A stretch of 52,848 bases of DNA, from assembly GCA_964202365.1 (NCBI GenBank), contig CAXNIN010000001.1, positions 1 to 52,848 of the forward strand, written 5' to 3'. Positions 4,566 through 52,530 of this stretch are shown here, piece after piece. Below the pieces are notes generated by a model, which did not search any database, was not told the origin of the DNA, and saw only the letters and a list, made by a program, of their open reading frames with translations. Origin of the DNA: Myxococcota bacterium (GTDB taxonomy: Bacteria > Myxococcota_A > UBA796 > SXON01). Positions within the stretch are counted from its first letter, which is position 1. The number at the start of each line of letters is the position of its first letter. Made by a program: the position numbers and the translations under genes.

Positions 4566-4579
4566 CGCGTCGTCCGCGG

Positions 4580-4921
4580 TCAGGCGCGTTCGGCGGATAG
4601 CCGACCGAGACCGCCGCTCGCGCGCCGGAGCTTCCCGAGGGCCGCTGCGAGCTGGCCGCTCGTCGGCTCCTCCCGTTTGAAGTGGAGGCTCCAGATCGCT
4701 TCGATGAGCATGTCGAGGATCGCCTCCCGGTGAGGGTGAGGCACGCAGAAGCTCTCGCGATCGAGGCTTTCGAGCGTACCGAGCGCGTTGAGCATCGCGT
4801 CGCGCACCCACGCCTTCTTGAACGAGCCGGTGTGACGCCCGAACGTGCGCTGCGCGGTCTCCATCAGGTCGCGGAGGATGGGGGTGAGCCACTCGGGGAG
4901 GTTGACGGTGGAGAGGTCCAT
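4580..4921 (-). CDS. Hypothetical small protein
   Basis: 113-aa ORF with balanced composition. It fits the gap between the lysozyme-like gene (stop 4958) and the C5-methyltransferase (start 4565). No motif recognised. Confidence 0.5.
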   Translation of the reverse strand: MDLSTVNLPEWLTPILRDLMETAQRTFGRHTGSFKKAWVRDAMLNALGTLESLDRESFCVPHPHREAILDMLIEAIWSLHFKREEPTSGQLAAALGKLRRASGGLGRLSAERA

Positions 4922-4957
4922 GTGGGTGTCCTGGGGTGAGGGTCGGATCGGAAAAGG

Positions 4958-24641: not shown

Positions 24642-25889
24642 TCACGCGACCTCGGGGGCGTCGGCGCGCGTCCACATCACGACGCGGCCGTCACCGAGGC
24701 GGACACGGCGCTTCGCATACCCGAGGCGGCCGAGGATCGAGGCCACGCGCATCCCGTCGCGCTTCGTCTGGCGGGCGATCTCCACGGCGAGCGCAGCGCC
24801 CAGCACGTCCGCCACGGTGAACGGCTCCTCGCGCTCCCCGGCCCACTTCTCGATGGGGGCCTCCCAGGCGTCCACCTCGCGGTAGGGCTCGGACGCCTCG
24901 ATGCGCGCCTGCTCACCCTCCGGCGAGAGCCACCACGTCTCTCCCTGGTCGAACCGCCACCGGGCCTCGGCCCAGAGCTGGTCGCGTTCGGCCGCGAGCG
25001 CGTCGAGGTTGATCACCGTCACGGCGACCGGCCAGAAACGCCGGCTTCCACTTGGGTCGCGAAGAAATTCCGGCTCGTTGGTGGTGCCGACGAACACCGT
25101 CTGGCGGGGAACGTCCACCGTGTTGCGCCCGTAGGACGGGCGGTAGTGGTCGATCTGCGCGCTGATGTACGCCTTCACGGCGCTGGTCTCGGAGCGGCGG
25201 AGGCTGTCCAACTCGGCCAGCTCGAAGATCCACACGCCGGGGAGCTGCTGGTAGGCGTCCTTGCTGGCGAAGTCGATGGCGCTGTCGCTGAACCAGTCCG
25301 GCCCGGCAAGCGTCGCGAACGCGCGGCTCTTTCCGATGCCCTGCTGGCCAACGAGGATCAGCACGTTGTCCACCTTGCAGCCCGGCTGCATGACGCGGGC
25401 GACCGCGCCCACGAGGAAGGCCCGGCCGAACTCGCGGATGAGCGGCGTGTCCTCCGCGCCGCAGTGCTCGGTCAGCCAGGTCTCCGTGCGGACGACGCCG
25501 TCCCACGCGAGCGAGTCGAGGTACTCCCTCGGGCCGTGCGTCGGGTGCTGGTTGCCGACGTGGCGCACGGCCTCGCCGACGAGGGTGGATGAAGCACGGA
25601 TTCCGTACATGCGGGCGATCTCCAGGTTGATGGCGGTTTCGTCGTCGTCGCGGACGGGGCTGCCATCGACGACTGTGCGGAGGCGGAACTCGTCGCGCTG
25701 GCACCGACCCGAAAACTTGGGATCGCCCTCCAGGATCGTGACGAAGTTCAGGAGCGTCGCGAGCGGTACGCCGTCCCTGCCTTCCTCCAGCAGCTCGGCG
25801 ACGCCGGGGTGGGGGGCGACGGGCGTGACGCCCGCCACGTCCATCGACGGCGGAAGGTCACTGGACATCGACACCTCCGCACGCGGCAT
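24642..25889 (-). CDS. VirE-family P-loop NTPase (phage/plasmid primase-associated SF3-type helicase)
   Basis: 415 aa. Walker A 'LVGQQGIGKS', 'VWIFELAELD' (Walker B-like), 'FVGTTNEPEFLRDPSGSRRFWPV', typical of VirE/D5-like helicases. Start is ambiguous (ATG 25889, 25868 or 25844). Confidence 0.85.
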   Translation of the reverse strand: MPRAEVSMSSDLPPSMDVAGVTPVAPHPGVAELLEEGRDGVPLATLLNFVTILEGDPKFSGRCQRDEFRLRTVVDGSPVRDDDETAINLEIARMYGIRASSTLVGEAVRHVGNQHPTHGPREYLDSLAWDGVVRTETWLTEHCGAEDTPLIREFGRAFLVGAVARVMQPGCKVDNVLILVGQQGIGKSRAFATLAGPDWFSDSAIDFASKDAYQQLPGVWIFELAELDSLRRSETSAVKAYISAQIDHYRPSYGRNTVDVPRQTVFVGTTNEPEFLRDPSGSRRFWPVAVTVINLDALAAERDQLWAEARWRFDQGETWWLSPEGEQARIEASEPYREVDAWEAPIEKWAGEREEPFTVADVLGAALAVEIARQTKRDGMRVASILGRLGYAKRRVRLGDGRVVMWTRADAPEVA

Positions 25890-26760
25890 CGAGGAGGGCG
25901 TCGAGGAACCCCGACCACCCGCAGGTTTTGCGGTGGGAGCAGGCGGCCTTTCGCTTCCGTCGCGGGTCGATCAGGAACCACACCGACGACCGACCGCACG
26001 CGGGGCACGGGATCTCCTTCGCGCTCACCGCCCCGACCCGCGCGCCGAGCCGTTGCGCGGCGCGCTCGCGGACCTCGGGATCGTTGTTCAGCCGGTACTG
26101 GGCCACACGACGGGCCTGGTCCATGCGCACGGGCACTGGCGGCAGGGGGCGTCGGGGCGTGGGCGGGGCGTCGTCCTCGGGCACGAGGCGCGGACCGGCG
26201 AGCACGCCGTCGACATCGACGGCGTGACCGTCGCGGTGCTCGTAGACCGCCAAGTGCAGGCGCTCGGCGGGGCAGGCGGGGATGTACCAGAGCCGGGCGA
26301 CATCGCGCGCTTTCCGATCAGCGTGGCCGCCGAGGTCGGAGTCGAGCGCCGACCACACCTTCGCGTACTCGCGCGCCGACAACGGACGCGAAAGCACGAG
26401 CACGACGCGGAAGCAGTTGTCGTCGTCGCCCGCCGTCTTGTGGCTGAACGACGTGTAGAGCAGGTAGGCGTAGCCGAGCCTTCGCAGCGCGGAGACGATG
26501 GCCCGCGCGACGGCGGCCGGCAGGTGGTCGAAGTCGAACACCAGCGCCGTGACGGACGTGACCCCGGCCTTGCCACGCCCCGCGCCCTCCGCGTAGGTGG
26601 CGAACGACACTGCGGGCGTGCCCTTCTTCAGCGCGCGCTCGATGTGGCGACGGAGGGCCCGAGGCAGCGGGGCCGCGTCGGGCCGGGGGATCGCGTCCAG
26701 CTCGTTGTCGAAGTGGACGTAGGCCATGACGTGCTCGGAGACAGACACGAGCACGCTCAT
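25858..26760 (-). CDS. Primase-polymerase (AEP superfamily, VirE-N/BT4734-like) with a C-terminal zinc ribbon
   Basis: ATG 26760 ('MSVLVSVSEH') within track ORF 25858..26931. 'ALVFDFDH' (DxD), 'LLYTSFSH', 'FRVVLVL'. C-terminal 'CPACGRSSVWF...CSHRKTCGW'. Confidence 0.7.
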   Translation of the reverse strand: MSVLVSVSEHVMAYVHFDNELDAIPRPDAAPLPRALRRHIERALKKGTPAVSFATYAEGAGRGKAGVTSVTALVFDFDHLPAAVARAIVSALRRLGYAYLLYTSFSHKTAGDDDNCFRVVLVLSRPLSAREYAKVWSALDSDLGGHADRKARDVARLWYIPACPAERLHLAVYEHRDGHAVDVDGVLAGPRLVPEDDAPPTPRRPLPPVPVRMDQARRVAQYRLNNDPEVRERAAQRLGARVGAVSAKEIPCPACGRSSVWFLIDPRRKRKAACSHRKTCGWSGFLDALLDAACGGVDVQ

Positions 26761-26912
26761 CGGCGACCTCCGCGACGGCCCTGCGGGCGGTAGGGGCAGG
26801 GCGGCGGGCCGACGTGCAGACCGCGCCGGTCGAACTTCGGCGGCGACGGCGGCTTGTGCGGCGAGGGCGGCCCCTTCGGGCTCGGGGGCTGCGCCGGTGG
26901 ACGCTTCTTCAT
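26757..26912 (-). CDS. Possible small Pro-rich basic protein
   Basis: 51 codons. ATGA overlaps at both ends (26909-26912 and 26757-26760) argue for translation. The Pro/Arg-rich composition could equally be a GC artefact. Confidence 0.3.
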   Translation of the reverse strand: MKKRPPAQPPSPKGPPSPHKPPSPPKFDRRGLHVGPPPCPYRPQGRRGGRR

Positions 26913-27136
26913 CGGGCACCGCCAGCGGCACGGGCGGCGGCTTCGTCTTCGCGGTGCCACGAGAGAAGCTCGCGGCAGAAGCCGAACAGGTTCGACCGCA
27001 TCGCGACGGCCCGGTCGCGCGAGATCCGTTCGTGGGTACGGGGCTGGAAGACCCGGATGATCGGGTCGAGGGACGGGTCGGCCGTCGCCGTTGAAGCGGG
27101 AATTCTGGCGCTTGGCAAAGGGAGCCTCTTGAGCAC
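26909..27136 (-). CDS. Possible small protein; first gene of the replication operon
   Basis: 75 codons with a GTG start at 27136. Partly balanced composition ('MRSNLFGFCRELLSWHRE'). ATGA-coupled to the next ORF. Confidence 0.35.
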   Translation of the reverse strand: MLKRLPLPSARIPASTATADPSLDPIIRVFQPRTHERISRDRAVAMRSNLFGFCRELLSWHREDEAAARAAGGAR

Positions 27137-27197: not shown

Positions 27198-29237
27198 CTA
27201 CGCCCCCAAGTCCCAGACGGTCGACGGCGACACGTAGCTCGGATGGATCCCGTGGATGTTCTTGATGTTCTCGCTCAAGTGTTGCACCAGGCCGCTGTTG
27301 TCCGCGAGCTTCTGGAACGCTGTCGCGATGTGCTTGCGGGTACGCTGCCGAGCGGCCTCCATAGCGGGGTTTTCCTTCTTGATCCGCCCCCCCGGTACCA
27401 CGCTCGCGTTCCGATAGGTGGCGAGTGCCGCCAGCTCACGCTTGATGTCGATGATGGCGTCGGCGTCGGTCATCTCCTCGGCCTCGGCCAGCTGCTCCTC
27501 CAACGCCTCCCGTCGCTTCTCCACGGCGCCGAGGGTCTTCGCGTCGGTCTTGTCGCCGAGGTCGCGGGTCGCCCGTCTCGGAAGCACGTTCCCAGCAAGA
27601 TCGAGCACGCTCACCCGCTTCCCGTTCGCAGCGAGCAGCTTGTGGAGCACTCCCATCCCCAACGTGTCTGGAATGTGACCACCGGGATCGCCAGGAAAGC
27701 AGATGAACCAGGTACTACCATCTTTCTTAAAGACGTGCGTTGTGGTTGCCGAACTCGCGGATGCTCCGGACTCGGGGCGGTCGCGGCCGATCAGCAGCAT
27801 CGGCAGAGAGGTCGCCGGAAGCCCGCGCGAGGTGATGCTTCGGCGTTGCTCGCCGAACACCCTGTCAAGCACGCCAGCGACGGTGTTCCCGTGCCGGCGA
27901 TGCAGATCGAAGAGCGCCCGCAGCGTCTCGTCGGTGCTGGGAACGGTGGCCTCCAGCGCCCCGCTGATCGCCCTGGCGGCTTCGCCAAAACTCTGGAGGA
28001 AGGTGGCAGGGTCCTTCATAGTCGCCCACCGGTCGGCGGCGTCCACGTAGGCGACGGCGTACAGGCGGTCGACCTCCTTCGCGATCGGATCGCTGAAGAG
28101 CTGGTGGCCGTAGGTCTTCTTGTCCTCCTCGAAACGCAGCCCGAGCGACTCCAGCGCGACCCGCCGATCAACGCATTGCGAGCAGATGCCACAGTGCGGC
28201 TCGTCTTTACTCCGGTTCGTGACGTGCGCGCAGCTATTGGTTGCCAGGATGGCGTGCGTCATCTCTGCGGGGATCAGGCGTCCAATCACCTCGGCGCGGG
28301 TCAGGTAGAGGAAGGGGTTCTCGATGGTGAAGGGCCGGTCAAACACGCACGACAGCAGCCGGGCGAAGTCGCGGATGCCAAGGGGGTGGGTCGTGCGAGA
28401 TGCGGCTGCGCCAATCACCTGCTGGGAGACAGGCAGGTTGAACGAGACAATACCATTCTCATAAAACGTGAACCGGTCCTTGCCCGTCAGCGCTGCCACC
28501 GCGCCTGCCAGGGCGGTGAACAGGAACGACCGGGTACGTTGCGAGCGCTCACGGTCCATGCCCTTGCCGTGCCGGGGCGTGCGGATCCCGACGCGTGCGG
28601 CGGTGAGGCCGGGGTACCGCTCGTTCAGTAGGCGCAGCGCGTTGTCCTGCGACGTGATCGGGATTGGCGACGGACGATGGCTGACGAAGATGACTCTCCG
28701 ACCCTGCGATAGCTGGTCCACGGCCCCTGAGAACGAGTCCAGCCCCCCAGAAAGAAGGGAGATGGAATCGACGTGATCCCACGGAAGGTAGGTCGCGCGG
28801 TCGGGCTGGCGAAGCGAAAGCTGGCGGGAGTCGCGCACAAGCCGGGGCACGAACTCGAATCCGAAGGTCTCGTCTGCGACAAATCCGAGCGCCCTGCAGA
28901 GGGTGTCGGTGACTTCGCGCTGCCGCCAGAATTCGACGTCGAGCACAGGAATTCGGAACTGCCAGTTTCTGTGCCAGGTCGCGCCGAGATTGACTGCGTC
29001 CAAGTCACCACGGAACACCATCCCGTCGGCGGTGAGCACGTACGCTGCGATCAGCAGAAGATCTTCAATGCGCGGCGGAAGTGTCCCGGTGAGGCACCGT
29101 TCGATCCCGTCGATACCGACGGTCAGATTGCAGCCGTCGGCAGATGTCGGTCCGGCGCGCACGCGGACGGCGTCCTCCGGTCCCGCGCCGGCCGCGAGCT
29201 CGCCGCAGAGAACCAGCCGCGTCCGGGGCTGGTTCAC
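27198..29237 (-). CDS. QueC-like PP-loop ATPase with extra N- and C-terminal domains (679 aa)
   Basis: GTG 29237 overlaps the upstream TGA (GTGA). PP-loop 'LLSGGLDSFSG' is encoded at 28734-28751. 'TRSFLFTALAGAVAAL...FYENGIVSFNLP' is also present. QueC-type Cys cluster 'SCAHV...HCGICSQCVDRR'. The N-terminal ~155 aa and C-terminal ~250 aa have no recognised motif. Confidence 0.8.
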   Translation of the reverse strand: MNQPRTRLVLCGELAAGAGPEDAVRVRAGPTSADGCNLTVGIDGIERCLTGTLPPRIEDLLLIAAYVLTADGMVFRGDLDAVNLGATWHRNWQFRIPVLDVEFWRQREVTDTLCRALGFVADETFGFEFVPRLVRDSRQLSLRQPDRATYLPWDHVDSISLLSGGLDSFSGAVDQLSQGRRVIFVSHRPSPIPITSQDNALRLLNERYPGLTAARVGIRTPRHGKGMDRERSQRTRSFLFTALAGAVAALTGKDRFTFYENGIVSFNLPVSQQVIGAAASRTTHPLGIRDFARLLSCVFDRPFTIENPFLYLTRAEVIGRLIPAEMTHAILATNSCAHVTNRSKDEPHCGICSQCVDRRVALESLGLRFEEDKKTYGHQLFSDPIAKEVDRLYAVAYVDAADRWATMKDPATFLQSFGEAARAISGALEATVPSTDETLRALFDLHRRHGNTVAGVLDRVFGEQRRSITSRGLPATSLPMLLIGRDRPESGASASSATTTHVFKKDGSTWFICFPGDPGGHIPDTLGMGVLHKLLAANGKRVSVLDLAGNVLPRRATRDLGDKTDAKTLGAVEKRREALEEQLAEAEEMTDADAIIDIKRELAALATYRNASVVPGGRIKKENPAMEAARQRTRKHIATAFQKLADNSGLVQHLSENIKNIHGIHPSYVSPSTVWDLGA

Positions 29238-30013
29238 TTCGCCCCCATCGTCAACTCGTCCCTGATCTTCTTCAGGGAGTAGGCGACGAATCGACTCGCG
29301 TGCTCCTCATCAAGCTTGCCCTCGAAGCGCGCCTTGGAGATCCATCCCGACGCGAACTTCTCCACGATCCGGGCGGCTTCCTGACAGTGTGTTCGCAGCC
29401 CTTCCTCGAAGGCTCGCTGGCCAGCCAACCCGGCGTGAGCCTGGTCGGGGCCGGAGTGCAGCGGGAGTTCGCGGGCGATGAAATGGGCGAGCGTCTTCTC
29501 GGTGAGCCGGGCGAAGAACGCGCGCGCAAGCCCGCCAAACTCCTTGTCCGTGGATCGCGCCGCCAATGCATCCTGCGCGCTCTCGACGTTCCGGTCGGGA
29601 AAGAGGCCCATCTTCCGCGGCTGGCTGAACTCGGCGAGCGTCTCGGCCGCCGCCATTTCCGCCATCTCGCCGAGCGCGGACCGCGACCCTTGCGAGGCCA
29701 CCCAGGCATCCACCGCGGTCGTGAGGCCGGAGGCGAGATCGGCAGCGGTGGGCGCAGCCGCCGCCACCGACACGCCCGCCTCGGACAACGCGGCGGCGAA
29801 GTTGCCCTCCTTCCGCGACGCCTGAGAAACCTGGAGAAGGAGCCAGAACGAGCGAACGAGGGCCGGATCATCCGAGAGCGCCTTCAGATTCTCTTGCACC
29901 ACGTCCATCGTGGCCGCCGCCACCTGCGACGCTTCCGCGCCCGCCCCCACGAGCGCGACGACCTGCTCCCACTTCTGCGACTTGGGCAGCGTGCCGAGGC
30001 GAACGTGGCCCAC
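29234..30013 (-). CDS. Hypothetical alpha-helical protein coupled to the QueC-like gene
   Basis: Start placed at GTG 30013, 31 nt after the Res stop. Upstream codons of track ORF 29234..30136 overlap the well-supported Res C-terminus. About 259 aa, Ala/Glu/Leu-rich. Its TGA overlaps the QueC-like GTG. Confidence 0.55.
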   Translation of the reverse strand: MGHVRLGTLPKSQKWEQVVALVGAGAEASQVAAATMDVVQENLKALSDDPALVRSFWLLLQVSQASRKEGNFAAALSEAGVSVAAAAPTAADLASGLTTAVDAWVASQGSRSALGEMAEMAAAETLAEFSQPRKMGLFPDRNVESAQDALAARSTDKEFGGLARAFFARLTEKTLAHFIARELPLHSGPDQAHAGLAGQRAFEEGLRTHCQEAARIVEKFASGWISKARFEGKLDEEHASRFVAYSLKKIRDELTMGAK

Positions 30014-30044: not shown

Positions 30045-33000
30045 TCACAGCGTCCCCTGCACCACGAGCACCTCGACGAACCGGGCGACGAACTTGAGTC
30101 CCTCCACTTCTGCCGGGAGCGGGCGGTGAGCGGCATTCGCGCTCTCGGGGCTCAGCCACGAGCGTCCTTCACGGTCTCGGGTCCAGCGTTTGAACGTGAA
30201 GCCTCCGAGTTCTGGGTCACCCGCCTCCTCCAGCCGTGCGATGAGCCGGTCCCCCAGGACCGCGGCCGCCACTGACGGTTCGCCGAAGTGTTGCCACAGG
30301 CACCAGGCGCCGTCGGGTGCCACCTTGTCCATCGAGTCGCCGATGATCTGGGCGGCAAACAGGCCCTTCCTCACTCGATGCGTGAGCACCTCGACGTAGC
30401 CCAGCAGCTCGGGCGGCTCGCCCGTGAGGAACGCTCCCGCCGCGGCTTTGAGCGAGTAGGCGGGCACGGCCACCGTGTTCCGGTCGTCCACGATCTCGTC
30501 GCGGCGAAGGAGCCGCAGCGCGGGCCGTCTCCCGGGCGTTGGGACAGGCAACGACTCCCACCACGCCTCGGTCTTGCCCGTCACCACGCGATAGTCGATG
30601 CCCAGGGCGGCGAAGTACCGCGCGGCGATTCGGACCTTCCTCCCCTCGTTGGCGAAGCGCAGCTTGTCCAACTCCACGCTGCCCTTCGTCTCTCGGACCA
30701 GCTCCAGACTTGGCGGCCCTCCGCCCGGAAGGCGAACGAGCCCCCAATCCGGGTTGTACTTGTGGATCACCTTCGGCATCTCGATCTTGAACTTCGGGGG
30801 GAACTTGAAATACACGGCGAGGTCGCCCGTGACCGGCTCCAGGCGACGCTGGACGAATTCTCGCTCAACGTCCGAGTCCACCTGAACGAGATCGTAGAGC
30901 GAGGCTGGACCGCCCTGCACCACTTCCTTCTGCGGATAGGGAATCGTCGGCGTGAGGAGGTCTTCCGGCCCGTGGGGATCTCCGAGCAGACCGCCCGCCG
31001 GGGTGTACCGCACACGGTCGGCAACGTGATCGGCCAACCCTTCGTTCACGCCGTCCACGAAGGTGTTCGCCCATCCCTCCGGGTTCTTGAAGATCCCCGC
31101 CTTCTTCTCGGGCAGAAGGCCGTCGAAGATGCGGATGAGCGTCTCCCGCGTCAAGAACGTCTCCTCCGCCGCCCGGGTGATGAAGTCGGGGACGGGCTGC
31201 CTCTCGGTCGCGATGCGCTGGTCGGGTGAGCGGACGTTGTCCACCCCGGTCGCCTGGAACGTGTACACCTCGCTCTCGCTGACCTCGACGTCGTTGGCGA
31301 ATCGGACCCGACGCTCGCCGAACTGGTCCCAAATCTTGGTGACTCGAAACCCCCGAAGCTGCTGGTTCTTCTTGCCGAGGTCGTTGCCGACCGCGACCGT
31401 GACCTTCCACTCATCCGGCTTCACGAACCCGAGCGTGACTTCCACGCCCGCCGAGGAACGCATCTCGATCAGGAGCTGCGCCTGGCCCGGGCCCGCGGAC
31501 TTGGCGACGCGGACAACGTACTCGGTCACCACGAAGCGACCCCGCGACACCGTGATGACGGGCTCCGGAAAACGAGCCGCGTTCAACCGGGAGATGCACT
31601 CGGCCACCAGCGCGTCCGTTTCGACCGCGAGGTCGTAGACGAGCCGCTGATTGAGGCGCTTCCAGAACACCTTGAACTCAGGAAGGTTGTACAGCTTCTC
31701 GCGGCGGCGGGCCGTCGCCTCGTCCTTCCTTTTCGGCGGCGGCGGCGGAGTCTCGCCGTCGTTGACGTAGTCTTGCTGAAGGTTGCGGACGTAGTTCTCG
31801 TAGCTTTCGTTGGCCACCACGGTGAGGACGTTGATGCTCGCGCCCTCGGGCCGGTTTCCCTTCTGGTCCACGCAGAGTCGGAGTCCGCGCCCGATCTCCT
31901 GGCGCTTCTTGGTGGTGCTCGTGGTCTGGTTCAGCGTGCAGATTTGGAACACGTTTGGGTTGTCCCAGCCCTCCTTCAGCGCGGAGTGCGCGAAGATGAA
32001 CGCGACGTTCTTCTTCTCCTCCTTCCCATCGGGAAATGAAAGCAGAATCTCCTTCTCCCGCATGATCAGGTTGAAGGCCGCCTTGACCGCTGCTCGCGCC
32101 TCCTCGGAATCGGCACCCTCGTCCTGAATGTAGACGTCGCGCTCCTGCTTGGTGTCCTTGTCCTTCTTCGTCGTCTTTGCGAAGTAGGCGGCTCGGACGT
32201 TCGCCGGTTCGAGGCCCGACCAGTGCGGCCGACCAACCTTCAGCTTGTTGAACGTCTCGTCGAAGAGGCGGCGGATCGTGCCGTTCTCATCGACGTAGTT
32301 GGCCACCCGGTCGATGAAGAACAGGGACAACACCTTCACGCCGCGCTCCCGAAGCTCGTCCTGACGCTTCATGTGCGCGACCAACGTCTCTTCGATCTGG
32401 GCTCGCCACACGTCCACGCGGCTGCCCACCACCTCGTCGTTGGTGGTGAGCGTCAGTCCGCCTTCGGAGCCGCCGAGGAGCTTGACCGAACTGGCCTTGC
32501 CCTCCGCGTCGTAGTTGATCTCCGCGACCTTCATCCCTTCGTGCTCCGCCAGCCCCGTGAGACGCATCAGGTCATCGTTCTGTCTGAGCGTCACCGACTT
32601 CTCGGCGGTCTTGCCGTCTACGAGCGTGAGAACCCGGACCTTGGCCGAGATCGGTGGGCCCCGGTGGACCTCCTCCAAACGAAGCAAATTCGCGGAAAGT
32701 GAGCCGAGTTGAGCCACGCCGACCACCTGGATCTGCTTGACCAATCCATGCCTGAATGCCTGGACGGGGGTGAGCCGGTACACGGGGTTCGGTTGCTGCC
32801 CCTTGCGGTGCGTGGCGGAGTACCGGAGAACGAACAGCGGCTTGAGCGTGCGGATCGCCTCCTTCGAGGCTTCGGACCCCATGTTCTGAGGTTCGTCGAG
32901 CACCACGACCGGCCTGGTGGCTTGCACCCACTCGAACGGCCTGCGCTTCCCCGTCAGCTTCTCGGTTCCCTTGTAGAAGTTTCGCGACGCGGAGTTGAAC

Positions 33001-33584
33001 GCCTGCTGGGTCATCACCATGATGATCGGGAAGGTGCTCTTCGCGAAACTCCCGATGCGAGCGATCTGCGCGCCGTCGTACTCGAACAGGTGGAAGTTGG
33101 TAACACCGTACAGCGCGGCGAAGTGGGCCTTGGTCACCTCGAAGCTCTTCTTCACGCCTTCGAGGATCGCCACGGAGGGCACGACGATGATGAACTTCCG
33201 CAGCCCGTACTTCTGGTACAGCTCGATCATCGTCCGGAAGTACACGTAGGTCTTGCCGGTACCTGTTTCCATCTCCAGCGTGAAGTGGTGGCACCGGTAG
33301 GAGTCGTTCGACACGCCGTTGAGGAGCGTCCCATCGTCGGGTTCCAGATTCCCGACGGGGACGAGAGCGTCCGGGTGAGCCTCGTTGTGGCGCTCCTGTA
33401 CCGCGCGCAGGTTCTCCTCCAGCCAGTAGTCAGCGAGGTCGTCGGCCTCCGGCGCGTTCGGGACGATTTCGTCGAGAAACGTCCCCAGCGCCGACTTGTC
33501 GAGGCCCACGAAAAGGTCCACAACGGCCGCGATGCCCTCGATCTGGTGGGGTTGGTTCGGAGAAAATGTGAATTGGAATGCCAT
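30045..33584 (-). CDS. Type III restriction enzyme Res subunit (SF2 helicase plus PD-(D/E)XK nuclease) with a C-terminal S24 (LexA/UmuD-like) domain
   Basis: ATG 33584 ('MAFQFTFSPNQ'), 10 nt after the Mod stop. 'LEMETGTGKTYVY' (motif I), 'VVVLDEPQNMG' (motif II), 'RQEIGRGLRL' (motif VI). Nuclease 'YNPDWGLV...LVRETKG'. C-terminal 'KAAAGAF...IIGDSMDKVAPDGAWCLW...FTFKRW'. Confidence 0.88.
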   Translation of the reverse strand: MAFQFTFSPNQPHQIEGIAAVVDLFVGLDKSALGTFLDEIVPNAPEADDLADYWLEENLRAVQERHNEAHPDALVPVGNLEPDDGTLLNGVSNDSYRCHHFTLEMETGTGKTYVYFRTMIELYQKYGLRKFIIVVPSVAILEGVKKSFEVTKAHFAALYGVTNFHLFEYDGAQIARIGSFAKSTFPIIMVMTQQAFNSASRNFYKGTEKLTGKRRPFEWVQATRPVVVLDEPQNMGSEASKEAIRTLKPLFVLRYSATHRKGQQPNPVYRLTPVQAFRHGLVKQIQVVGVAQLGSLSANLLRLEEVHRGPPISAKVRVLTLVDGKTAEKSVTLRQNDDLMRLTGLAEHEGMKVAEINYDAEGKASSVKLLGGSEGGLTLTTNDEVVGSRVDVWRAQIEETLVAHMKRQDELRERGVKVLSLFFIDRVANYVDENGTIRRLFDETFNKLKVGRPHWSGLEPANVRAAYFAKTTKKDKDTKQERDVYIQDEGADSEEARAAVKAAFNLIMREKEILLSFPDGKEEKKNVAFIFAHSALKEGWDNPNVFQICTLNQTTSTTKKRQEIGRGLRLCVDQKGNRPEGASINVLTVVANESYENYVRNLQQDYVNDGETPPPPPKRKDEATARRREKLYNLPEFKVFWKRLNQRLVYDLAVETDALVAECISRLNAARFPEPVITVSRGRFVVTEYVVRVAKSAGPGQAQLLIEMRSSAGVEVTLGFVKPDEWKVTVAVGNDLGKKNQQLRGFRVTKIWDQFGERRVRFANDVEVSESEVYTFQATGVDNVRSPDQRIATERQPVPDFITRAAEETFLTRETLIRIFDGLLPEKKAGIFKNPEGWANTFVDGVNEGLADHVADRVRYTPAGGLLGDPHGPEDLLTPTIPYPQKEVVQGGPASLYDLVQVDSDVEREFVQRRLEPVTGDLAVYFKFPPKFKIEMPKVIHKYNPDWGLVRLPGGGPPSLELVRETKGSVELDKLRFANEGRKVRIAARYFAALGIDYRVVTGKTEAWWESLPVPTPGRRPALRLLRRDEIVDDRNTVAVPAYSLKAAAGAFLTGEPPELLGYVEVLTHRVRKGLFAAQIIGDSMDKVAPDGAWCLWQHFGEPSVAAAVLGDRLIARLEEAGDPELGGFTFKRWTRDREGRSWLSPESANAAHRPLPAEVEGLKFVARFVEVLVVQGTL
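30048..30482 (-). other. S24 peptidase-like (LexA/UmuD-type) domain fused to the Res C-terminus
   Basis: The last ~145 aa contain: an 'AAAG' Ala-Gly candidate cleavage site (30435-30440); 'GDSM' with Ser at 30333-30335; and 'FKRW' with Lys at 30189-30191. The codons were checked against the plus strand. Confidence 0.65.
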
Positions 33585-33594: not shown

Positions 33595-35547
33595 CTACAG
33601 CGTCTTGACGCGGTTGAGGACGTCGGCGATGCGGACCTTGGTCCGGTCGGTGAGCGCGTGCTCGCGACAGACGAAGAGATCGTGCTCGAACGCGGCCAGC
33701 GCATCCACCGTCGCTCCGGCGATCTGGTCGTCGAGGCAGACGAGCAGCCGCGACGGGATCGACAGGTGCTCCACTCGGGTGACGACGTTGTCGAGGAACT
33801 CTGGCGCGGGCGAGCGTGCGGAGTCCAAGGGGTAGCCCTCCAGGAGCATCACCTCGACGAGGAGTCCGTCAGTGGTCCACCCCGCCATCAGCCCGTTCTG
33901 TGCGCGGAACAACGCAGTGAGCGTGAGGGCGTCCTCGCCGTCGTAGGGTACCCATCGCTGGACGTTGCTCCGGTCTTCGCGCAGAACGCGGAATCCGAAG
34001 TCGCCCTTCGGATTCTCCTTCTTGAGCTGCTTGGAGACGCGACGCAGGCGCTCCTTGGTGATCGCGTCGATGGTCTTCAGGCCCAGTGCGGCGGCGTTCT
34101 TCCCGGACTCGACTTCCTCGTTCACCTCCACGTCGAGCTGGACGAGGATGAAGCGCCGGTAGGTCGCGAACCTCTCATTCGCGAGCCAAACCCCGTGCCC
34201 GGTAGAGCCCGACCCGGCGAAGAAGTCCAGCACGATGTCATCGGGGCCGGTGAGATAGTCCACGAGGCGCGCCAGATCGTCGAACGGCTTCGGGTTGTCG
34301 AAAACCCGCTTACCTCCGAACAGGTCGTCGAATCGCTGCGCTGCGGTCTGCGCGTAGCTGTACGCCACGGAGGGGAGCACCTGAACCGCCGATTCGAACA
34401 GGTTGGAACGAACCCGGGGGACTGTCGTCTCGTCTGGCCCAAATACTACCCGACCTGCCGCTACCTCCTCCCAGAATCGCTCGGGCCGCGGGTAACGCCA
34501 TCCACTCCTGGGTTTCTTGCAGGACCGCTTCGTCGTCGGATGGATCACGTCATAGGTGGGGCCACCGCCGCCGGGCCAGTTGATGTTGCCATCGTCTCGG
34601 TACGGCCCGCGGTCGTCCACCTTGGTGTACCTCGCGAGGGGCTTCCGCGGATCATCGGCGGCAAGGCCATCGAGAAAGCTCTTCAGGCCCGTCGCGACCT
34701 TGGCCCAATCGCTCAAGTGCTGCGCCTTGAGGCGCTCGAATAGCTCCTTGACCTCCTCGACGCCCTCTTTGGGAGCACGGAGTTGGGTGTCAAGTTCGCC
34801 GAGCTTCTCCTTACTCTTGGCGTAGACCAGCATGTACTCGTGCCCGACCGAGAAAAACTTCGCGTCGTTCTTCCGATTCCGGTCCCACACCAACGTCGCG
34901 ATGAAGTTCTCCTCGCCCATGATGGCGTTGAGTAAGAGGCGGAGGTTCGCCACCTCGGCGTCGTCGATGCTGACGACGAGGAAGCCGTCGTCTCGAAGCA
35001 GATGCCGCGCCAACGAAACGCGCGGGTACATGAAGTTGAGCCAGTTCGAATGGAACCTTCCGCTGCTCTTCGGGTTGCTGGTGAGGCGACCGTGAAGGTC
35101 GGCCTGCCGCGTGTCCAACAGGTAGAGTTCGAGGTCAACCGCGAATTTGTCCTTGTAGACGAAGTCCTCGCCCGTGTTGTAGGGGGGGTCGATGTAGATC
35201 AGCTTCACCCTTCGGGCGTAGCTTTTCTGGAGGAGACGGAGGATCTCCAAGTTGTCGCCGACCAGCAGGAGGTTCTGCGTCGACGCCTCATCCACCCCCT
35301 CGCCGGCGAGCGGGCGGAGGGTCGCCGAGCCGGCGAGCGCTCCCAGCCGTCGAGCGGTCTGGTGCCCCGGCCAGGCGAGGCCATAGTGCTCGTCGTCCGC
35401 GCCGAAGTCCGCCGCAGTGCCCTCCAAAGCGGCGCGGAGGTGGTCCATGTCCACACCACCATCCGTGAACACCTCGGGAAACAGCTCCTGGAGCTGGGCC
35501 AACCGGCTGGCGTCAGGGGACTCGCGTTCGATTCGTTCAACGGGCAT
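33595..35547 (-). CDS. Type III R-M Mod subunit (beta-class N6-adenine/N4-cytosine DNA methyltransferase)
   Basis: ATG 35547 ('MPVERIERE') preceded by GGAG, 2 nt after the nuclease stop. 'LIYIDPPYNTGEDF' (motif IV DPPY) precedes 'VLDFFAGSGSTGHGV' (motif I), the beta-class order. Confidence 0.88.
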   Translation of the reverse strand: MPVERIERESPDASRLAQLQELFPEVFTDGGVDMDHLRAALEGTAADFGADDEHYGLAWPGHQTARRLGALAGSATLRPLAGEGVDEASTQNLLLVGDNLEILRLLQKSYARRVKLIYIDPPYNTGEDFVYKDKFAVDLELYLLDTRQADLHGRLTSNPKSSGRFHSNWLNFMYPRVSLARHLLRDDGFLVVSIDDAEVANLRLLLNAIMGEENFIATLVWDRNRKNDAKFFSVGHEYMLVYAKSKEKLGELDTQLRAPKEGVEEVKELFERLKAQHLSDWAKVATGLKSFLDGLAADDPRKPLARYTKVDDRGPYRDDGNINWPGGGGPTYDVIHPTTKRSCKKPRSGWRYPRPERFWEEVAAGRVVFGPDETTVPRVRSNLFESAVQVLPSVAYSYAQTAAQRFDDLFGGKRVFDNPKPFDDLARLVDYLTGPDDIVLDFFAGSGSTGHGVWLANERFATYRRFILVQLDVEVNEEVESGKNAAALGLKTIDAITKERLRRVSKQLKKENPKGDFGFRVLREDRSNVQRWVPYDGEDALTLTALFRAQNGLMAGWTTDGLLVEVMLLEGYPLDSARSPAPEFLDNVVTRVEHLSIPSRLLVCLDDQIAGATVDALAAFEHDLFVCREHALTDRTKVRIADVLNRVKTL

Positions 35548-35549
35548 TC

Positions 35550-36392
35550 CTAATCTCCGAGGTCCGCCGCCCGGTGGAGCGTCGGGAGGTTGGCTTCGAT
35601 CCATTCATCGCGCTGCTGGTCGGCGCCGAAATCCGACATCGAGGTGGCGAGTACGGTGTCGGGCCGCGCGCCTTGCTGCGCGCGCAGCACGAACTGGCGG
35701 TAGCTCGTGCAGGAGAACCGCACGTCGCAGTTGAGGCACACGTCAGTCCCGAAGGGCACGCGACCCCCGGGCCGCGAGGGGCCGCGCAGGACGTCCACCG
35801 GTGGCGGCTTGAAGTCGTGCGCCTCGATGGCATCGACGACCCGCCCGAAGTCGGCCACCACGTCCGCGACAATCTCCTGCCGCACCTCGATGTCGAGCAC
35901 CGGCTGCCAGGTCGCCATCGCGGCCTCGATGCGCTTGGGGTCGCCGGTACTGATGGCGTGCTTCAACGCCCGCGGTGGGCGGGTTGCGATGACGGCGACC
36001 TTGTTGAGCGGCTGGCTTCGGAGGGTCTGCCAGATGTGCGCGTAGAGGTTGAGCTGCCGGTAATGCGGCTCGACGTGCTCCCGCGCCGCTTCGGCATCGA
36101 GATAGGTTTTCAGGTCGTACATCGTGGCGGACTCGTCGTCCCGGACGATGTCTACGATGCCTTCGAGGGTGTACCTCCGCCCCGCTGGGCTGCGCTGCTC
36201 CGGAAGGGTCAGCCGGACTTCGGTCTCAGTGACGGTCTCCGCCAGCTCGCGAAGGCGGCGCCAGTAGAGGAGCACCTGCTCCAACGCCGACGCCTTGACG
36301 TCGGGCGTCACCGCACGCCCCGTCTCCTCGCGAAGTCGCTCGAAGTTGGCCTCGAATGCTTCGAGGATGAAGCCCTCCAGGTCATCGGTCAC
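35550..36392 (-). CDS. PD-(D/E)XK nuclease, Cas4/RecB-like, with a C-terminal CX2CX5C cluster
   Basis: GTG 36392 overlaps the UvrD-like TGA (GTGA). 'LEGIVDIV', 'MYDLKT', 'YRQLNLYAHI' (D / D-x-K / QxxxY). 'CLNCDVRFSC' is encoded at 35709-35738. Confidence 0.7.
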   Translation of the reverse strand: MTDDLEGFILEAFEANFERLREETGRAVTPDVKASALEQVLLYWRRLRELAETVTETEVRLTLPEQRSPAGRRYTLEGIVDIVRDDESATMYDLKTYLDAEAAREHVEPHYRQLNLYAHIWQTLRSQPLNKVAVIATRPPRALKHAISTGDPKRIEAAMATWQPVLDIEVRQEIVADVVADFGRVVDAIEAHDFKPPPVDVLRGPSRPGGRVPFGTDVCLNCDVRFSCTSYRQFVLRAQQGARPDTVLATSMSDFGADQQRDEWIEANLPTLHRAADLGD

Positions 36393-38968: not shown

Positions 38969-39354
38969 CGGCGGGTTTGTGCGCGCCAGAGGCTCCACGC
39001 CGTCGCCGCAGTCACGGGACCCCACCCGTGCACCGCGGCCAGCTTCGTCTTGAACTCGGCCTCGCGGCCCGCGCTCGCGAGGGTCGGCAGGCCGTCGAGT
39101 AGCCCCTTGGAAACGGCCTCCATGAGCTGCTGGTGGCGGTACCAGAGGATCGGGAGGAACCCGCCCCGTGCGTAGCCGGCGTCCGTCATCGCTGCGATCA
39201 GCGCGTCCCTGTCCATGCCCGCGGCGCGGGGTGCATCGAGCAGCCCCCGGGTCTGGAACGCCGGGAGCAGGGCGGCCGCCCGGTCGGTGCCGAAGCCGTT
39301 GACGGCGAGCATGGCGGTCACCAGGTGACCAATCTGTTCGGAAGTTAGGGACAT
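38965..39354 (-). CDS. Small helix-hairpin-helix protein resembling the N-terminal part of HhH-GPD (EndoIII/OGG-type) glycosylases but lacking the catalytic loop
   Basis: ATG 39354 ('MSLTSEQIGH'). 129 aa, helical. HhH-like 'LAAVHGWGPVTAATAWSLW' lies ~7 residues from the C-terminus, so no GPD/Asp segment follows. First gene of the coupled operon. Confidence 0.45.
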   Translation of the reverse strand: MSLTSEQIGHLVTAMLAVNGFGTDRAAALLPAFQTRGLLDAPRAAGMDRDALIAAMTDAGYARGGFLPILWYRHQQLMEAVSKGLLDGLPTLASAGREAEFKTKLAAVHGWGPVTAATAWSLWRAQTRR

Positions 39355-41452: not shown

Positions 41453-41487
41453 CAGTCCGTTGCTCTAACCAACTGAGCTAAGCGGGA
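41411..41487 (-). tRNA. tRNA-Asn (anticodon GTT), CCA encoded
   Basis: The reverse complement folds by hand into a cloverleaf: acceptor TCCCGCT/AGCGGGA, D arm GCTC-AGTTGGTTA-GAGC, anticodon arm ACGGA-CTGTTAA-TCCGT, variable loop GGGTC, T arm CCCTG-TTCAAGT-CAGGG, discriminator G plus CCA. 77 nt. Confidence 0.93.
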
Positions 41488-52518: not shown

Positions 52519-52530
52519 GGGGGCGCCGGT

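What the first reader, a model, noticed from the sequence alone, without database searches (positions are those of the whole stretch)
27198..30013. ORFan plus QueC-like pair resembling the QatB-QatC core, grafted downstream of Res without a QatA ATPase or QatD TatD
The 679-aa protein has the PP-loop 'SGGLDS' (28734-28751) and the QueC-type cysteine cluster 'SCAHV...CGICSQC'. It also carries about 155 N-terminal and about 250 C-terminal residues that ordinary QueC lacks. It is GTGA-coupled to a ~259-aa helical ORFan.

The published Qat defence system (QueC-like associated with ATPase and TatD) has the order ATPase, unknown protein, QueC-like, TatD. Here the position of the ATPase/nuclease partners is taken by a type III Res (ATPase plus nuclease).

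The QueC-like module may therefore be a portable sensor or effector that can be plugged into different ATPase/nuclease chassis. No 7-deazaguanine biosynthesis or insertion genes are present in the window.
Basis: inference. Interest (0 to 1): 0.75.

Follow-up and report, generated by a model that had tools for sequence, protein, structure and literature searches.

The report
New two-gene QatC-like defence pair
Two overlapping genes behind a restriction enzyme belong to a large, unnamed sister family of the QatB-QatC phage-defence core: an ATP-using QueC-like enzyme with an extra tail domain, paired with a helical protein whose start is always Met-Gly-His and is probably the enzyme's substrate.

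Summary
A 259-aa gene (30013-29234, minus strand) overlaps by GTGA a 679-aa gene (29237-27198) that carries SGGLDS and a four-cysteine cluster.

The large protein belongs to the QatC clade: PADLOC QatC 7.6e-52, and Foldseek to the solved QatB-QatC complex 1e-18. It lies outside NCBI's QatC equivalog (185.7 bits against a cut-off of 280). It also carries an extra ~180-aa C-terminal domain.

The "ORFan" is not an orphan. It has about 1,800 representative relatives, all ~255-261 aa. The N-terminus MGH is invariant, and R5, L6, G7, L9, P10 and W15 are nearly so.

In 59 of 64 informative genomic loci this gene is followed directly by a long QatC-like gene. No QatA, QatB or QatD occurs nearby.

Homology to QatB is only suggestive (hhalign 42%; no sequence-model or Foldseek hit). 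The analogy to QatB's essential Gly2 is strong.

Res is not a conserved partner. In all eight members of the nearest subclade, however, the pair sits next to a restriction-type system, and the type differs between loci: type III, BREX, McrBC, methylase/SNF2. In seven of the eight it lies directly downstream, and in every locus that extends far enough a small protein and a primase follow.

Verdict: a new variant of a known kind. It is probably an autonomous switch that conjugates a group onto an N-terminal glycine.

The parts
27198..29237 (-). Long QatC-like PP-loop enzyme, 679 aa, GTG start
   Evidence: PADLOC QatC 7.6e-52. NCBIfam QatC 1.2e-54, but 185.7 bits is below the 280 cut-off. PDB QatC 9vlk_A 3.4e-31. 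AF2 model pLDDT 90.2. Foldseek 9y01_B E 1e-18, TM 0.74.
28773..29237 (-). QatC-type N-terminal extension (aa 1-155) with invariant D59, R76, W88 and R90
   Evidence: It aligns to the N-extension of solved QatC. The motif list D63 and D(x)4R...WxR is from PMC13329287.
28143..28772 (-). QueC-like Rossmann core (aa 156-365)
   Evidence: Pfam QueC hit at aa 291-364. HMMER alignment to QatC. It carries RxRxxF (234-238), ENG (260-262), S-R-T-T-H-P (280-285) and PxxxxTR (308-314).
28734..28751 (-). PP-loop SGGLDS (aa 163-168)
   Evidence: Read directly from the sequence. S163, G164, G165, D167 and S168 are invariant in 94 relatives.
28173..28232 (-). Zinc-type cysteine cluster C336, C349, C352, C355, followed by R358 and R359
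   Evidence: Read directly from the sequence. Invariant in 94 and in 55 relatives. It corresponds to C334/C354/C357/C360 of Pseudomonas aeruginosa QatC (PMC13279940).
27783..28142 (-). Helical C-terminal extension shared with canonical QatC (aa 366-485). In QatC this region forms the QatB-binding base.
   Evidence: The AF2 model has helices at 388-484. The Foldseek alignment to 9y01_B covers 485 columns. The role of the extension is taken from PMC13279940.
27201..27740 (-). Extra C-terminal domain (aa 500-679): three strands, three helices, a long helical hairpin, two helices, then terminal strands. Family unknown, possibly a winged-helix DNA-binding domain.
   Evidence: AF2 secondary structure with pLDDT mostly above 90. 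No Pfam or PDB sequence match. Sister clades carry Trans_reg_C, MarR_2, DpnII-MboI nuclease or Metallophos at this position.
29234..30013 (-). 259-aa all-helical partner of the 'MGH family', the probable substrate of the enzyme
   Evidence: 154 relatives, all ~255-261 aa. 1,805 representatives. AF2 pLDDT 91.1, 12 helices, first ~12 residues unstructured. A long QatC-like gene follows directly in 59 of 64 loci.
29969..30013 (-). N-terminal motif MGHVRLGTLPKSQKW. M1, G2 and H3 are invariant. R5, L6, G7, L9, P10 and W15 are at least 90% conserved.
   Evidence: Alignments A1 and A2. Counts of MGH starts. The comparable QatB motif is MGTS...P16.W18 with an essential G2 (PMC13279940).
29234..29237 (-). 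GTGA overlap: start codon of the enzyme gene and stop codon of the partner gene
   Evidence: Read directly from the sequence. 26 of 65 other loci show ATGA, GTGA or TTGA at the same junction.
30045..33584 (-). Context only: type III Res (1179 aa from MAFQF), ending 31 nt before the partner gene
   Evidence: PADLOC REase_III 1.3e-165. Pfam ResIII and RE_endonuc. No terminator-like site between Res and the pair.
33595..35604 (-). Context only: type III Mod methyltransferase
   Evidence: PADLOC MTase_III 2.1e-150. Pfam N6_N4_Mtase.
26909..27136 (-). Small conserved 75-aa ORF directly downstream of the pair
   Evidence: tblastn matches to the 70-73-aa proteins at the same position in L143 (2.6e-9) and L001 (2.8e-6).
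24642..26931 (-). Backbone of the mobile element: PrimPol-like gene (26931-25858) and VapE-like gene (25889-24642)
   Evidence: PADLOC PrimPol and Pfam BT4734-like_N, both weak. 88.7% and 92.6% identical to the genes at the same position in L001. VapE Pfam annotation comes from L001.

Best explanation
The two genes form a self-contained, two-gene relative of the QatB-QatC core of the Qat anti-phage system. They are carried as cargo on an element integrated at tRNA-Asn.

Shown:
- The 679-aa protein is a QatC-clade PP-loop ATP pyrophosphatase with the full set of QatC-specific residues and the QatC fold, plus an extra ~180-aa C-terminal domain.
- The 259-aa protein belongs to a large family whose only strictly fixed feature is its first three residues, Met-Gly-His. 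Its gene almost always overlaps the 5' end of a long QatC-like gene.

Inferred, by analogy with Cap9-CdnD and QatC-QatB:
- Methionine aminopeptidase removes Met1.
- The short, flexible N-terminal tail places the free amine of Gly2 in the enzyme's active site.
- The enzyme adenylates a carboxylate. 7-carboxy-7-deazaguanine from the host queuosine pathway is the leading candidate.
- The enzyme transfers that group onto Gly2.
- This modification switches the complex between a resting and an active state during phage infection.

More speculative:
- The variable C-terminal domain is the sensor or output module. Here it looks like a winged helix with a coiled-coil hairpin. In sister clades it is an OmpR- or MarR-type winged helix, a PD-(D/E)XK nuclease or a metallophosphatase.

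The pair is probably co-transcribed with Mod and Res, but it does not depend on them.
For: Enzyme identity:
- QatC models match at 7.6e-52 and 1.2e-54.
- Solved QatC chains match at 3.4e-31.
- Foldseek gives 9y01_B at E 1e-18 and TM 0.74. Cap9 gives 5.5e-5 and QueC gives 1.5e-4 to 3.6e-4.
- The QatC signature residues D59, R76, W88, R90, R234, R236, E260, G262, R281, T282, T283, H284, P285, C336, C349, C352, C355, R358, R359 and Y376 are invariant in 94 relatives. Position 280 is T (73%) or S (26%), and the window has S. The motif list is from PMC13329287.
- The (T/S)-R-T of QatC replaces the Tyr/Asp of QueC and Cap9 (PMC13279940).

Partner as substrate:
- MGH is invariant, as is expected only if the extreme N-terminus is functional.
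- Gly2 permits Met removal. In QatB, Gly2 is essential, is the N-terminal residue by Edman sequencing, sits in the QatC active site, and was found carrying the deazaguanine group (PMC13279940, PMC13376578, PMC13639016).
- AF2 leaves the first ~12 residues of the partner free.
- The two genes overlap.
- A long QatC-like gene follows the partner gene directly in 59 of 64 loci.
- The same partner family accompanies long QatC proteins with every C-terminal domain type examined.
- hhalign of the MGH family against QatB gives 42%, E 2.6e-4. Two control comparisons give 0.2% and 1.3%.

Autonomy:
- No QatA, QatB or QatD occurs in 120 loci.
- Res and Mod are absent from the other loci.
- Canonical QatBC alone defends against lambda-vir (PMC13279940).

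Defence context:
- Neighbours include type I and type III R-M, BREX, McrBC, DUF1156/SNF2 systems and OLD nucleases, together with integrases and recombinases.
Against: - No experiment exists on any member of this clade. The chemistry of even canonical QatC has not been reconstituted in vitro (PMC13279940).
- The partner matches no QatB model, and Foldseek does not link it to the QatB chain. That chain should be in the library because entry 9y01 is there.
- The partner's tail is ~12 residues, against 30-90 in QatB, so the docking geometry must differ.
- His3 has no counterpart in QatB (MGTS) or in the CBASS cyclase CdnD (MGGS).
- The C-terminal domain has no detectable family.
- The constant position just upstream of a small protein and a primase also fits a role in the life cycle of the mobile element.
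- No copy was found by tblastn in sequenced phages.
- I could not model the complex.
Confidence: 0.55

Rival explanations
1. One reading: the pair is a sensor or effector module that works through the adjacent helicase-nuclease. Res (or BREX, McrBC or an SNF2 enzyme in other loci) takes the role that QatA and QatD have in QatABCD.
For: In the window and its seven nearest relatives that I looked up, the pair always lies next to a restriction-type system.
- In seven of the eight it is on the same strand, 0-78 nt downstream: window 31 nt, L001 32 nt, L139 13 nt, L141 0 nt, L142 78 nt, L143 21 nt, L144 12 nt.
- In L140 the neighbouring system is divergently transcribed.
- No terminator-like site lies between Res and the pair.
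Against: - The upstream systems are mechanistically unrelated to one another, so no common interface is evident.
- In the broad sample the pair follows recombinases, small regulators or core genes, and Res/Mod homologues are absent.
- QatA and QatD are dispensable for canonical QatBC against some phages (PMC13279940).
- Clustering of unrelated defence systems in islands is common (established knowledge).
Confidence: 0.15
2. The pair is a regulatory switch of the mobile element rather than a defence system. Glycine conjugation would control a DNA-binding protein, which in turn governs induction or replication of a P4-like or primase-bearing integrative element, for example on sensing a helper phage.
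For: - In the seven of the eight subclade loci that extend past the enzyme gene, the pair sits directly upstream of a conserved small protein and a primase. L142 is cut off inside the enzyme gene.
- L141 carries a Phage_P4_cII gene.
- In other clades the pair lies between a serine recombinase module and a replication module.
- Many C-terminal domains are winged-helix DNA binders.
Against: - Some clades carry a PD-(D/E)XK nuclease or a metallophosphatase instead of a DNA-binding domain. Those look like effectors.
- The window and L001 share backbone genes at 89-93% identity, yet their pairs are only 47% and 32% identical. The pair therefore behaves like exchangeable cargo, not backbone.
- The only tested relatives (QatBC, Cap9) are defence components.
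Confidence: 0.12
3. The locus is a decayed remnant of a complete QatABCD, type IV CBASS or Dpd locus.
For: QatA and QatD are missing. A TatD-family ORF exists elsewhere in the window.
Against: - Both genes are intact, and the two-gene arrangement recurs in 59 of 64 loci across many phyla.
- None of 120 loci holds QatA, QatB or QatD.
- The enzyme forms a clade separate from 13 canonical QatC proteins.
- The TatD ORF is of the housekeeping type and lies outside the element.
Confidence: 0.02
4. The enzyme makes a free 7-deazaguanine base or a DNA modification that serves the neighbouring R-M system. It would then be a metabolic QueC or Dpd-like role rather than protein modification.
For: The PP-loop and zinc cluster of QueC are retained. 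The gene lies next to a methylase and restriction pair.
Against: - TIGR00364 QueC scores 16.5 bits against a cut-off of 150.
- The QueC substrate motifs are replaced by the QatC set (PMC13329287).
- Canonical QatC cannot complement a queC deletion (PMC13329287).
- No TGT/DpdA-like transglycosylase appeared among the annotated neighbours of the subclade loci.
Confidence: 0.03

Closest known systems
QatB-QatC core of the QatABCD anti-phage system (Gao et al. 2020; structures 9Y01/9Y02, 9VLK/9VLL, 9ZEE/9ZEF)
   Same: - The enzyme has the QatC fold, including both extensions, and all QatC signature residues.
- The partner gene lies directly upstream and overlaps the enzyme gene.
- The partner is a helical protein of ~260 aa with a free N-terminal tail that begins Met-Gly, followed by conserved Pro and Trp.
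- The unit has two genes, like the minimal active QatBC.
   Different: - The enzyme forms a separate clade: 25% identity to canonical QatC, and 185.7 bits against a cut-off of 280.
- It carries an extra, variable C-terminal domain.
- The partner belongs to a different sequence family (no QatB-model or DUF5610-chain match) with MGH instead of MGTS and a ~12-residue tail instead of 30-90.
- QatA and QatD are never nearby.
- RefSeq calls both proteins 'hypothetical' (L128).
Cap9-CdnD of type IV CBASS (N-terminal deazaguanylation; 9NTO)
   Same: A QueC-derived enzyme that acts on the Gly2 amine of a partner protein. The logic is ATP-dependent carboxylate activation.
   Different: - Cap9 is a minimal ~185-aa enzyme that keeps the QueC Tyr/Asp base-binding residues.
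- Its substrate is a nucleotidyltransferase.
- Cap10 (TGT-like) and an effector are required.
- None of these is present here. The Foldseek match to 9nto_B is only 5.5e-5.
[quoted passage not shown]
   Same: The PP-loop SGGxDS and the Cys4 zinc site.
   Different: It lacks the YxQxHxxE, VPxRN and YPDC motifs, is three times longer, has no queD or queE neighbours, and falls far below the TIGR00364 cut-off.
QatB + QatC-QatD fusion (Bradyrhizobium ottawaense plasmid, L132)
   Same: A two-gene locus with a ~700-aa QatC carrying a C-terminal add-on.
   Different: There the enzyme scores 489 bits as true QatC, the add-on is a true QatD TatD nuclease (338 bits), and the partner is a true QatB.

Membership tests
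QatC (QueC-like protein of Qat systems) | PP-loop SGGxDS | tested here: met
   SGGLDS at aa 163-168. Invariant in 94 relatives.
QatC (QueC-like protein of Qat systems) | Zinc cluster C...CGxCxxC followed by RR | tested here: met
   C336, C349-G-x-C352-x-x-C355, R358 and R359, all invariant.
QatC (QueC-like protein of Qat systems) | QatC-specific motifs: D63, D(x)4R...WxR, RxRxxxF, ExG, T-R-T-T-H-P, P(x)4TK, Y376 (PMC13329287; PMC13279940) | tested here: met
   D59, D71/R76, W88-x-R90, R234-x-R236-x-x-F, E260-N-G262, S280-R-T-T-H-P285, P308...T313-R314 and Y376. Conservative changes: S for T at 280, R for K at 314, and E/F for D/W in the DxWxxxF motif.
QatC (QueC-like protein of Qat systems) | Fold with the QatC N- and C-terminal extensions around a QueC core | tested here: met
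   Foldseek 9y01_B: E 1e-18, TM 0.74 on the target, 485 columns.
QatC (QueC-like protein of Qat systems) | Score above the curated equivalog cut-off (NF041925, 280 bits) | tested here: not met
   185.7 bits. Controls: canonical QatC 547 and 489 bits; another long form 187.6 bits.
QatC (QueC-like protein of Qat systems) | ATP-dependent modification of the partner's N-terminus | not testable with these tools
   Needs biochemistry and mass spectrometry.
QatB (DUF5610 / PF28083) | Match to QatB sequence models or to solved QatB chains | tested here: not met
   No PADLOC hit at E up to 10. No NCBIfam QatB hit at E up to 1. A profile search of PDB sequences finds nothing, while a control QatB finds 9zee_A and 9vll_A.
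QatB (DUF5610 / PF28083) | Remote homology by profile-profile comparison | tested here: inconclusive
   hhalign gives 3% with 6 QatB sequences and 42%, E 2.6e-4, over 93 columns with 22. Controls give 0.2% and 1.3%.
QatB (DUF5610 / PF28083) | Same fold as the solved QatB | tested here: not met
   Foldseek of a pLDDT-91 model against the PDB gives no hit below E 1, although entry 9y01 is in that library. Foldseek is weak on all-helical folds, so this is not decisive.
QatB (DUF5610 / PF28083) | Conserved N-terminal Met-Gly with an exposed Gly2 | tested here: met
   MGH is invariant. The third and fourth residues differ from MGTS.
QatB (DUF5610 / PF28083) | Long disordered N-terminal tail of 30-90 residues | tested here: not met
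   The first helix starts at residue 13 in the AF2 model.
QatB (DUF5610 / PF28083) | Gene directly upstream of, and coupled to, the QatC gene | tested here: met
   GTGA overlap. 59 of 64 loci.
QatABCD system | QatA KAP NTPase and QatD TatD nuclease in the operon | tested here: not met
   No QatA hit in the window. The only TatD ORF is of the housekeeping type and about 22 kb away. None is found in 120 related loci.
Type IV CBASS (Cap9/Cap10/CD-NTase) | Minimal Cap9 with QueC-type Tyr/Asp base recognition, plus a CD-NTase and a TGT-like Cap10 | tested here: not met
   The enzyme has the QatC-type S-R-T. The Cap9 structure is a far weaker match than QatC. No such neighbours appear in the annotated loci.
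Housekeeping QueC | TIGR00364 equivalog score and queD/queE neighbourhood | tested here: not met
   16.5 bits against 150. The match covers only the C-terminal third of the model.
Type III restriction-modification (context genes) | A Mod methyltransferase plus a Res helicase-endonuclease | tested here: met
   MTase_III 2.1e-150 and REase_III 1.3e-165. ResIII and RE_endonuc.

The most novel reading that the evidence does not exclude
The MGH protein and long QatC form a conjugation-controlled DNA-binding switch that sits at a fixed slot of primase-bearing integrative elements. It would link phage sensing to the element's own induction, or to control of whichever restriction-type cargo is inserted just upstream of it. 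N-terminal nucleobase conjugation would then be a general regulatory modification in mobile elements, not only a defence trigger.
Probability: 0.12. Interest if true: 0.8.

Novelty: new variant of a known kind. Interest (0 to 1): 0.6.

Why it matters
QueC-derived enzymes that attach a nucleobase to a protein's N-terminal glycine were discovered only in 2025-2026, in two settings: Cap9 and QatC. What the modified protein then does is still unknown.

This locus points to a third setting, and a large one:
- about 1,800 representative partner proteins;
- many phyla, with hits in MAG contigs labelled Akkermansia and Klebsiella and in isolate genomes of Ralstonia, Stenotrophomonas and Leptospira.

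None of the annotation libraries checked names the pair. PADLOC, Pfam and NCBIfam have no model for the partner, NCBIfam scores the enzyme below its QatC cut-off, and RefSeq labels the one copy I examined 'hypothetical protein'.

Three features make the family useful for study:
- The substrate motif (MGH) is invariant but different from QatB, which gives a natural comparison for working out how the enzyme recognises its substrate.
- The tail is short.
- The enzyme is fused to swappable C-terminal domains (winged helix, nuclease, phosphatase), and these hint at the output step that is missing for QatBC.

The family would also explain part of the two-thirds of 'QatC-cluster' proteins that a published network analysis found without QatA or QatD neighbours (PMC13329287).

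Tried and rejected
- The search for related loci with the partner alignments failed because no stretch was conserved enough. I replaced it with a back-translated DNA pattern of the N-terminal motif, which proved highly specific: 109 of 120 loci were true hits.
- Foldseek of the partner model against the PDB and against viral structures gave nothing.
- A Pfam scan of all 112 partner sequences at E up to 10 gave only noise. The local Pfam copy may not contain PF28083.
- The C-terminal domain profile against PDB sequences and Pfam gave only coiled-coil noise. My reading of it as a split OmpR-like winged helix rests on predicted secondary structure and on the sister clades. It is inference only.
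- tblastn of the partner against phage and plasmid collections found nothing, although a divergent pair exists on a Leptospira plasmid.
- Exact look-ups of the window's own two proteins found no contig, so the source organism stays unknown.
- I considered the TatD ORF at 51.8 kb as a hidden QatD and rejected it.
- I considered the 709-aa Bradyrhizobium QatC as a bridge form. It is a QatC-QatD fusion with a true QatB.
- The last large protein search, with QatB as query, returned only close relatives (above 80% identity). It added little depth to the QatB profile.

Full report
**What is there.** The window has about 70% G+C, dipping to 63-68% between about 27 and 41 kb. On the minus strand a run of genes reads as follows:
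- a UvrD-like helicase (39025-36389);
- a PD-(D/E)XK, Cas4-like protein (36392-35550);
- a type III Mod (35604-33595);
- a type III Res (33584-30045).

After a 31-nt gap comes a 259-aa gene that starts at GTG 30013. A 679-aa gene starts at GTG 29237 and overlaps its stop codon as GTGA. SGGLDS is at residues 163-168 (28751-28734). The cysteines are C336, C349, C352 and C355.

**The 679-aa protein.** It belongs to the QatC branch of the QueC superfamily.
- PADLOC QatC matches at 7.6e-52, against QueC at 1.8e-5.
- NCBIfam QatC matches at 1.2e-54, against TIGR00364 QueC at 16.5 bits with a cut-off of 150.
- Solved QatC chains 9vlk_A and 9zee_B match at 3.4e-31 and 9.7e-28 over residues 58-362.
- An AlphaFold2 model built from 94 sequences has a mean pLDDT of 90.2.
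- The best structural match of that model is the QatC chain of the QatB-QatC complex, 9y01_B (E 1e-18, TM 0.74, 485 columns). Cap9 (5.5e-5) and QueC (1.5e-4 to 3.6e-4) follow far behind.

The residues that a published analysis lists as the QatC signature are invariant or nearly so in 94 relatives (PMC13329287). The base-recognition Tyr/Asp of QueC and Cap9 is replaced by the QatC-type (T/S)-R-T (PMC13279940).

The protein is not an ordinary QatC in three respects.
- It scores 185.7 bits, below NCBI's equivalog cut-off of 280. Canonical proteins score 547 and 489, and another long form scores 187.6.
- In a neighbour-joining tree, 55 long proteins separate cleanly from 13 canonical ones. Identity is 25% between the groups and 35-37% within them.
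- Residues ~500-679 form an extra, confidently folded domain. Its order is three strands, three helices, a long helical hairpin, two helices and terminal strands. It has no Pfam or PDB sequence match.

Relatives carry other domains at that position: Trans_reg_C, MarR_2, a DpnII-MboI-type PD-(D/E)XK nuclease or a metallophosphatase.

**The 259-aa protein.** It is not an orphan.
- A word-indexed search found 154 relatives, the best 120 nearly all 254-261 aa at 98-100% coverage.
- A full profile search of 1.84 billion representatives found 1,805 hits at E up to 1e-3 and 605 at E up to 1e-30.
- Invariant columns include M1, G2 and H3. R5, L6, G7, L9, P10 and W15 are at least 90% conserved.
- 113 of 120 database entries start MGH, and the other seven look like start-site miscalls or truncated reads.
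- All 87 intact genomic copies start MGH, 80 with ATG and 7 with GTG.
- The AlphaFold2 model (pLDDT 91.1) is a 12-helix bundle with a free tail of ~12 residues.

Canonical QatB is also a helical protein of about 240-300 aa encoded directly upstream of qatC. It has a conserved MGTS start and conserved Pro16 and Trp18, and Gly2 is essential (PMC13279940). Gly2 is the N-terminal residue by Edman sequencing and sits in the QatC active site (PMC13376578). It was detected carrying the 7-amido-7-deazaguanine group (PMC13639016).

The analogy is therefore close, but homology is not established.
- No PADLOC, NCBIfam or Pfam model matches the partner.
- Its profile finds no QatB chain among PDB sequences, while a control QatB does.
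- Foldseek finds nothing, although entry 9y01 is in the library.
- Profile-profile comparison rose from 3% with six QatB sequences to 42% with 22. That alignment has E 2.6e-4 and pairs residues 65-162 with QatB 107-199.
- Two unrelated controls gave 0.2% and 1.3%.

I treat the partner as a functional analogue of QatB and a possible distant relative.

**The pair is a unit.** 109 of them hold a true family member. They come from Alpha-, Beta- and Gammaproteobacteria, Planctomycetota, Acidobacteriota, Chloroflexota, Verrucomicrobiota, Bacteroidota and others.

Of 64 loci with an intact partner gene and at least 1.5 kb downstream, 59 have a QatC-like ORF directly downstream on the same strand, usually overlapping. 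The full-length ones are about 570-920 aa as called. One of the five exceptions is interrupted by an insertion.

The same partner family precedes long enzymes with Trans_reg_C, nuclease and phosphatase tails, and a pair on a Leptospira plasmid. RefSeq annotates both Leptospira proteins as hypothetical.

Six sets of canonical QatA, QatB and QatD proteins find nothing in any of these loci. The locus is therefore not a decayed Qat, CBASS or Dpd remnant.

**Relation to Res.** Res and Mod homologues are absent from the other loci, apart from one weak ResIII match. In the broad sample the flanks vary:
- serine recombinase with DUF2924 (24 loci);
- tyrosine integrases (11 loci);
- a 77-aa LexA-like winged-helix gene 33-38 nt upstream (about 10 loci);
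- type I R-M genes, a DUF1156 methylase, an OLD-family nuclease, or core genes such as gyrA.

The nearest relatives tell a more specific story. The seven I looked up are 47-53% identical in the partner for the five aligned pairwise and 46-50% for the other two. In the window and these seven, the pair always adjoins a restriction-type system, and the type differs each time:
- type III R-M in the window;
- DUF499/DUF3780/DUF1156/PLD-SNF2 in L001;
- an SNF2 helicase in L139;
- a methylase plus SNF2 helicase, divergently transcribed, in L140;
- methylase, ResIII and a 295-aa gene in L141;
- BREX in L142 and L143;
- McrBC in L144.

In seven of the eight the intergenic distance is 0-78 nt. In the seven loci that extend past the enzyme gene, a conserved 70-91-aa protein and a primase or VapE module follow. 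L142 ends inside the enzyme gene.

The window's PrimPol and VapE genes are 88.7% and 92.6% identical to those of L001. The two pairs are only 47% and 32% identical, and the upstream systems are unrelated.

The element ends at a tRNA-Asn (41411-41487), which the 3' end of a large serine recombinase gene overlaps.

My reading is that the pair is exchangeable cargo at a fixed slot of a family of integrative elements, next to a hotspot for restriction-type systems. It gives no evidence that Res replaces QatA or QatD.

**Mechanism.**

Shown:
- a QatC-type ATP-binding enzyme with intact catalytic residues;
- a tightly coupled partner whose extreme N-terminus is under absolute constraint.

Inferred from the solved and tested relatives:
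- Met1 is removed.
- The Gly2 amine enters the active site.
- It attacks an adenylated carboxylate, most likely 7-carboxy-7-deazaguanine from host queuosine synthesis. QatC's altered pocket leaves room for another acyl donor (PMC13279940, PMC13376578).
- The modification gates an anti-phage response.

Speculative:
- The C-terminal domain binds nucleic acid and acts as sensor or output. The nuclease and phosphatase variants in sister clades argue for an output role.

**Limits.**
- I could not search the C-terminal domain by structure alone.
- I could not identify the source organism.
- I did not scan the whole window for queD, queE or tgt.
- The 8-of-8 adjacency to restriction-type systems rests on eight loci, with no background control.

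**Novelty.** Five 2026 papers on QatABCD and the QueC superfamily describe canonical QatB and QatC, seven arrangements of the canonical genes, and a QatC network cluster in which only about 34% of members adjoin qatA or qatD (PMC13279940, PMC13376578, PMC13639016, PMC13434339, PMC13329287). I read only parts of them. In those parts, and in two full-text searches, I found no description of a long QatC clade with an MGH-type partner. The pair is best filed as a new variant of a known kind.

Noticed in passing
window 30078-30446 (minus strand), C-terminus of Res: The type III Res carries a ~130-aa C-terminal extension with a full-length but sub-threshold Peptidase_S24 (LexA-like) match: E 1.4e-3, 18.7 bits against 23.3. 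It includes a GDSM motif and a later Lys (FTFKRW). A self-cleaving or LexA-like domain fused to a restriction subunit is unusual.
   Followed up: partly
window 35550-39025 (minus strand): A UvrD-like helicase (878 aa, with a weak C-terminal PD-(D/E)XK match) and a Cas4-like PD-(D/E)XK protein with a cysteine cluster (280 aa) overlap each other and the start of Mod. They may form a four-gene unit with the type III R-M, or be a separate helicase-nuclease defence pair.
   Followed up: no
window 39785-41487: A large serine recombinase gene (plus strand, 555 aa) runs into a tRNA-Asn gene (41411-41487, minus strand). G+C rises to 72-75% beyond it. This is probably the integration site and right end of the element that carries the whole defence cluster.
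   Followed up: partly
window 24642-27136 versus L001 5955-8440: The PrimPol-like and VapE-like genes are 89-93% identical to those of a metagenomic contig. That contig's upstream cargo is a DUF499/DUF1156/PLD-SNF2 system instead of type III R-M, and its MGH/QatC pair is only 47% and 32% identical. This shows a defence hotspot with cargo exchange in one element family.
   Followed up: partly
window 26909-27136 (minus strand): A 75-aa ORF directly after the enzyme gene is conserved at the same position in L001, L139, L141 and L143. The shared motif is roughly (Y/F)QPxTxR...(D/E)(G/A)RE...NLxGF...W(K/R)R. Its function is unknown.
   Followed up: partly
window 51799-52530 (minus strand): A TatD-family ORF matches QatD proteins at 1e-14 to 1e-8. 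It scores best as a general YchF/TatD exonuclease (132 bits; QatD 50 bits against 230). It lies outside the island and is not part of the system.
   Followed up: yes
P0340 (1079 aa, from the representative search): A single protein fuses an MGH-family domain, a long QatC and a metallophosphatase. Its start reads MHPVRF, without the glycine. It is either a natural fusion or a frameshift or assembly artefact, and it bears on whether the two proteins act as a complex.
   Followed up: partly
L132 743-3522 (Bradyrhizobium ottawaense plasmid): A canonical QatB is followed by a 709-aa QatC-QatD fusion (QatC 489 bits, QatD 338 bits), with no QatA annotated in the 4-kb stretch I fetched. This is another compact form of the Qat system.
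   Followed up: partly
L002, L018, L048, L049, L054, L060, L064, L092, L116, L117 (15-38 nt upstream of the MGH gene): About ten loci have a ~77-aa gene for a LexA-type N-terminal winged helix ('GITEPQ..TLR.ICQI.D..GLPPTVKELA..LGISHASAHEQIAQLVRKGYL') just upstream of the pair. It may be a dedicated regulator. It echoes the S24-like tail on Res in the window.
   Followed up: no
L065 (candidate division NC10 contig), oriented coordinates 1-6806: The pair sits directly after the hsdM and hsdS genes of a type I R-M. The enzyme gene is separated from the partner gene by about 1.7 kb that holds an opposite-strand 362-aa ORF, probably an insertion.
   Followed up: no
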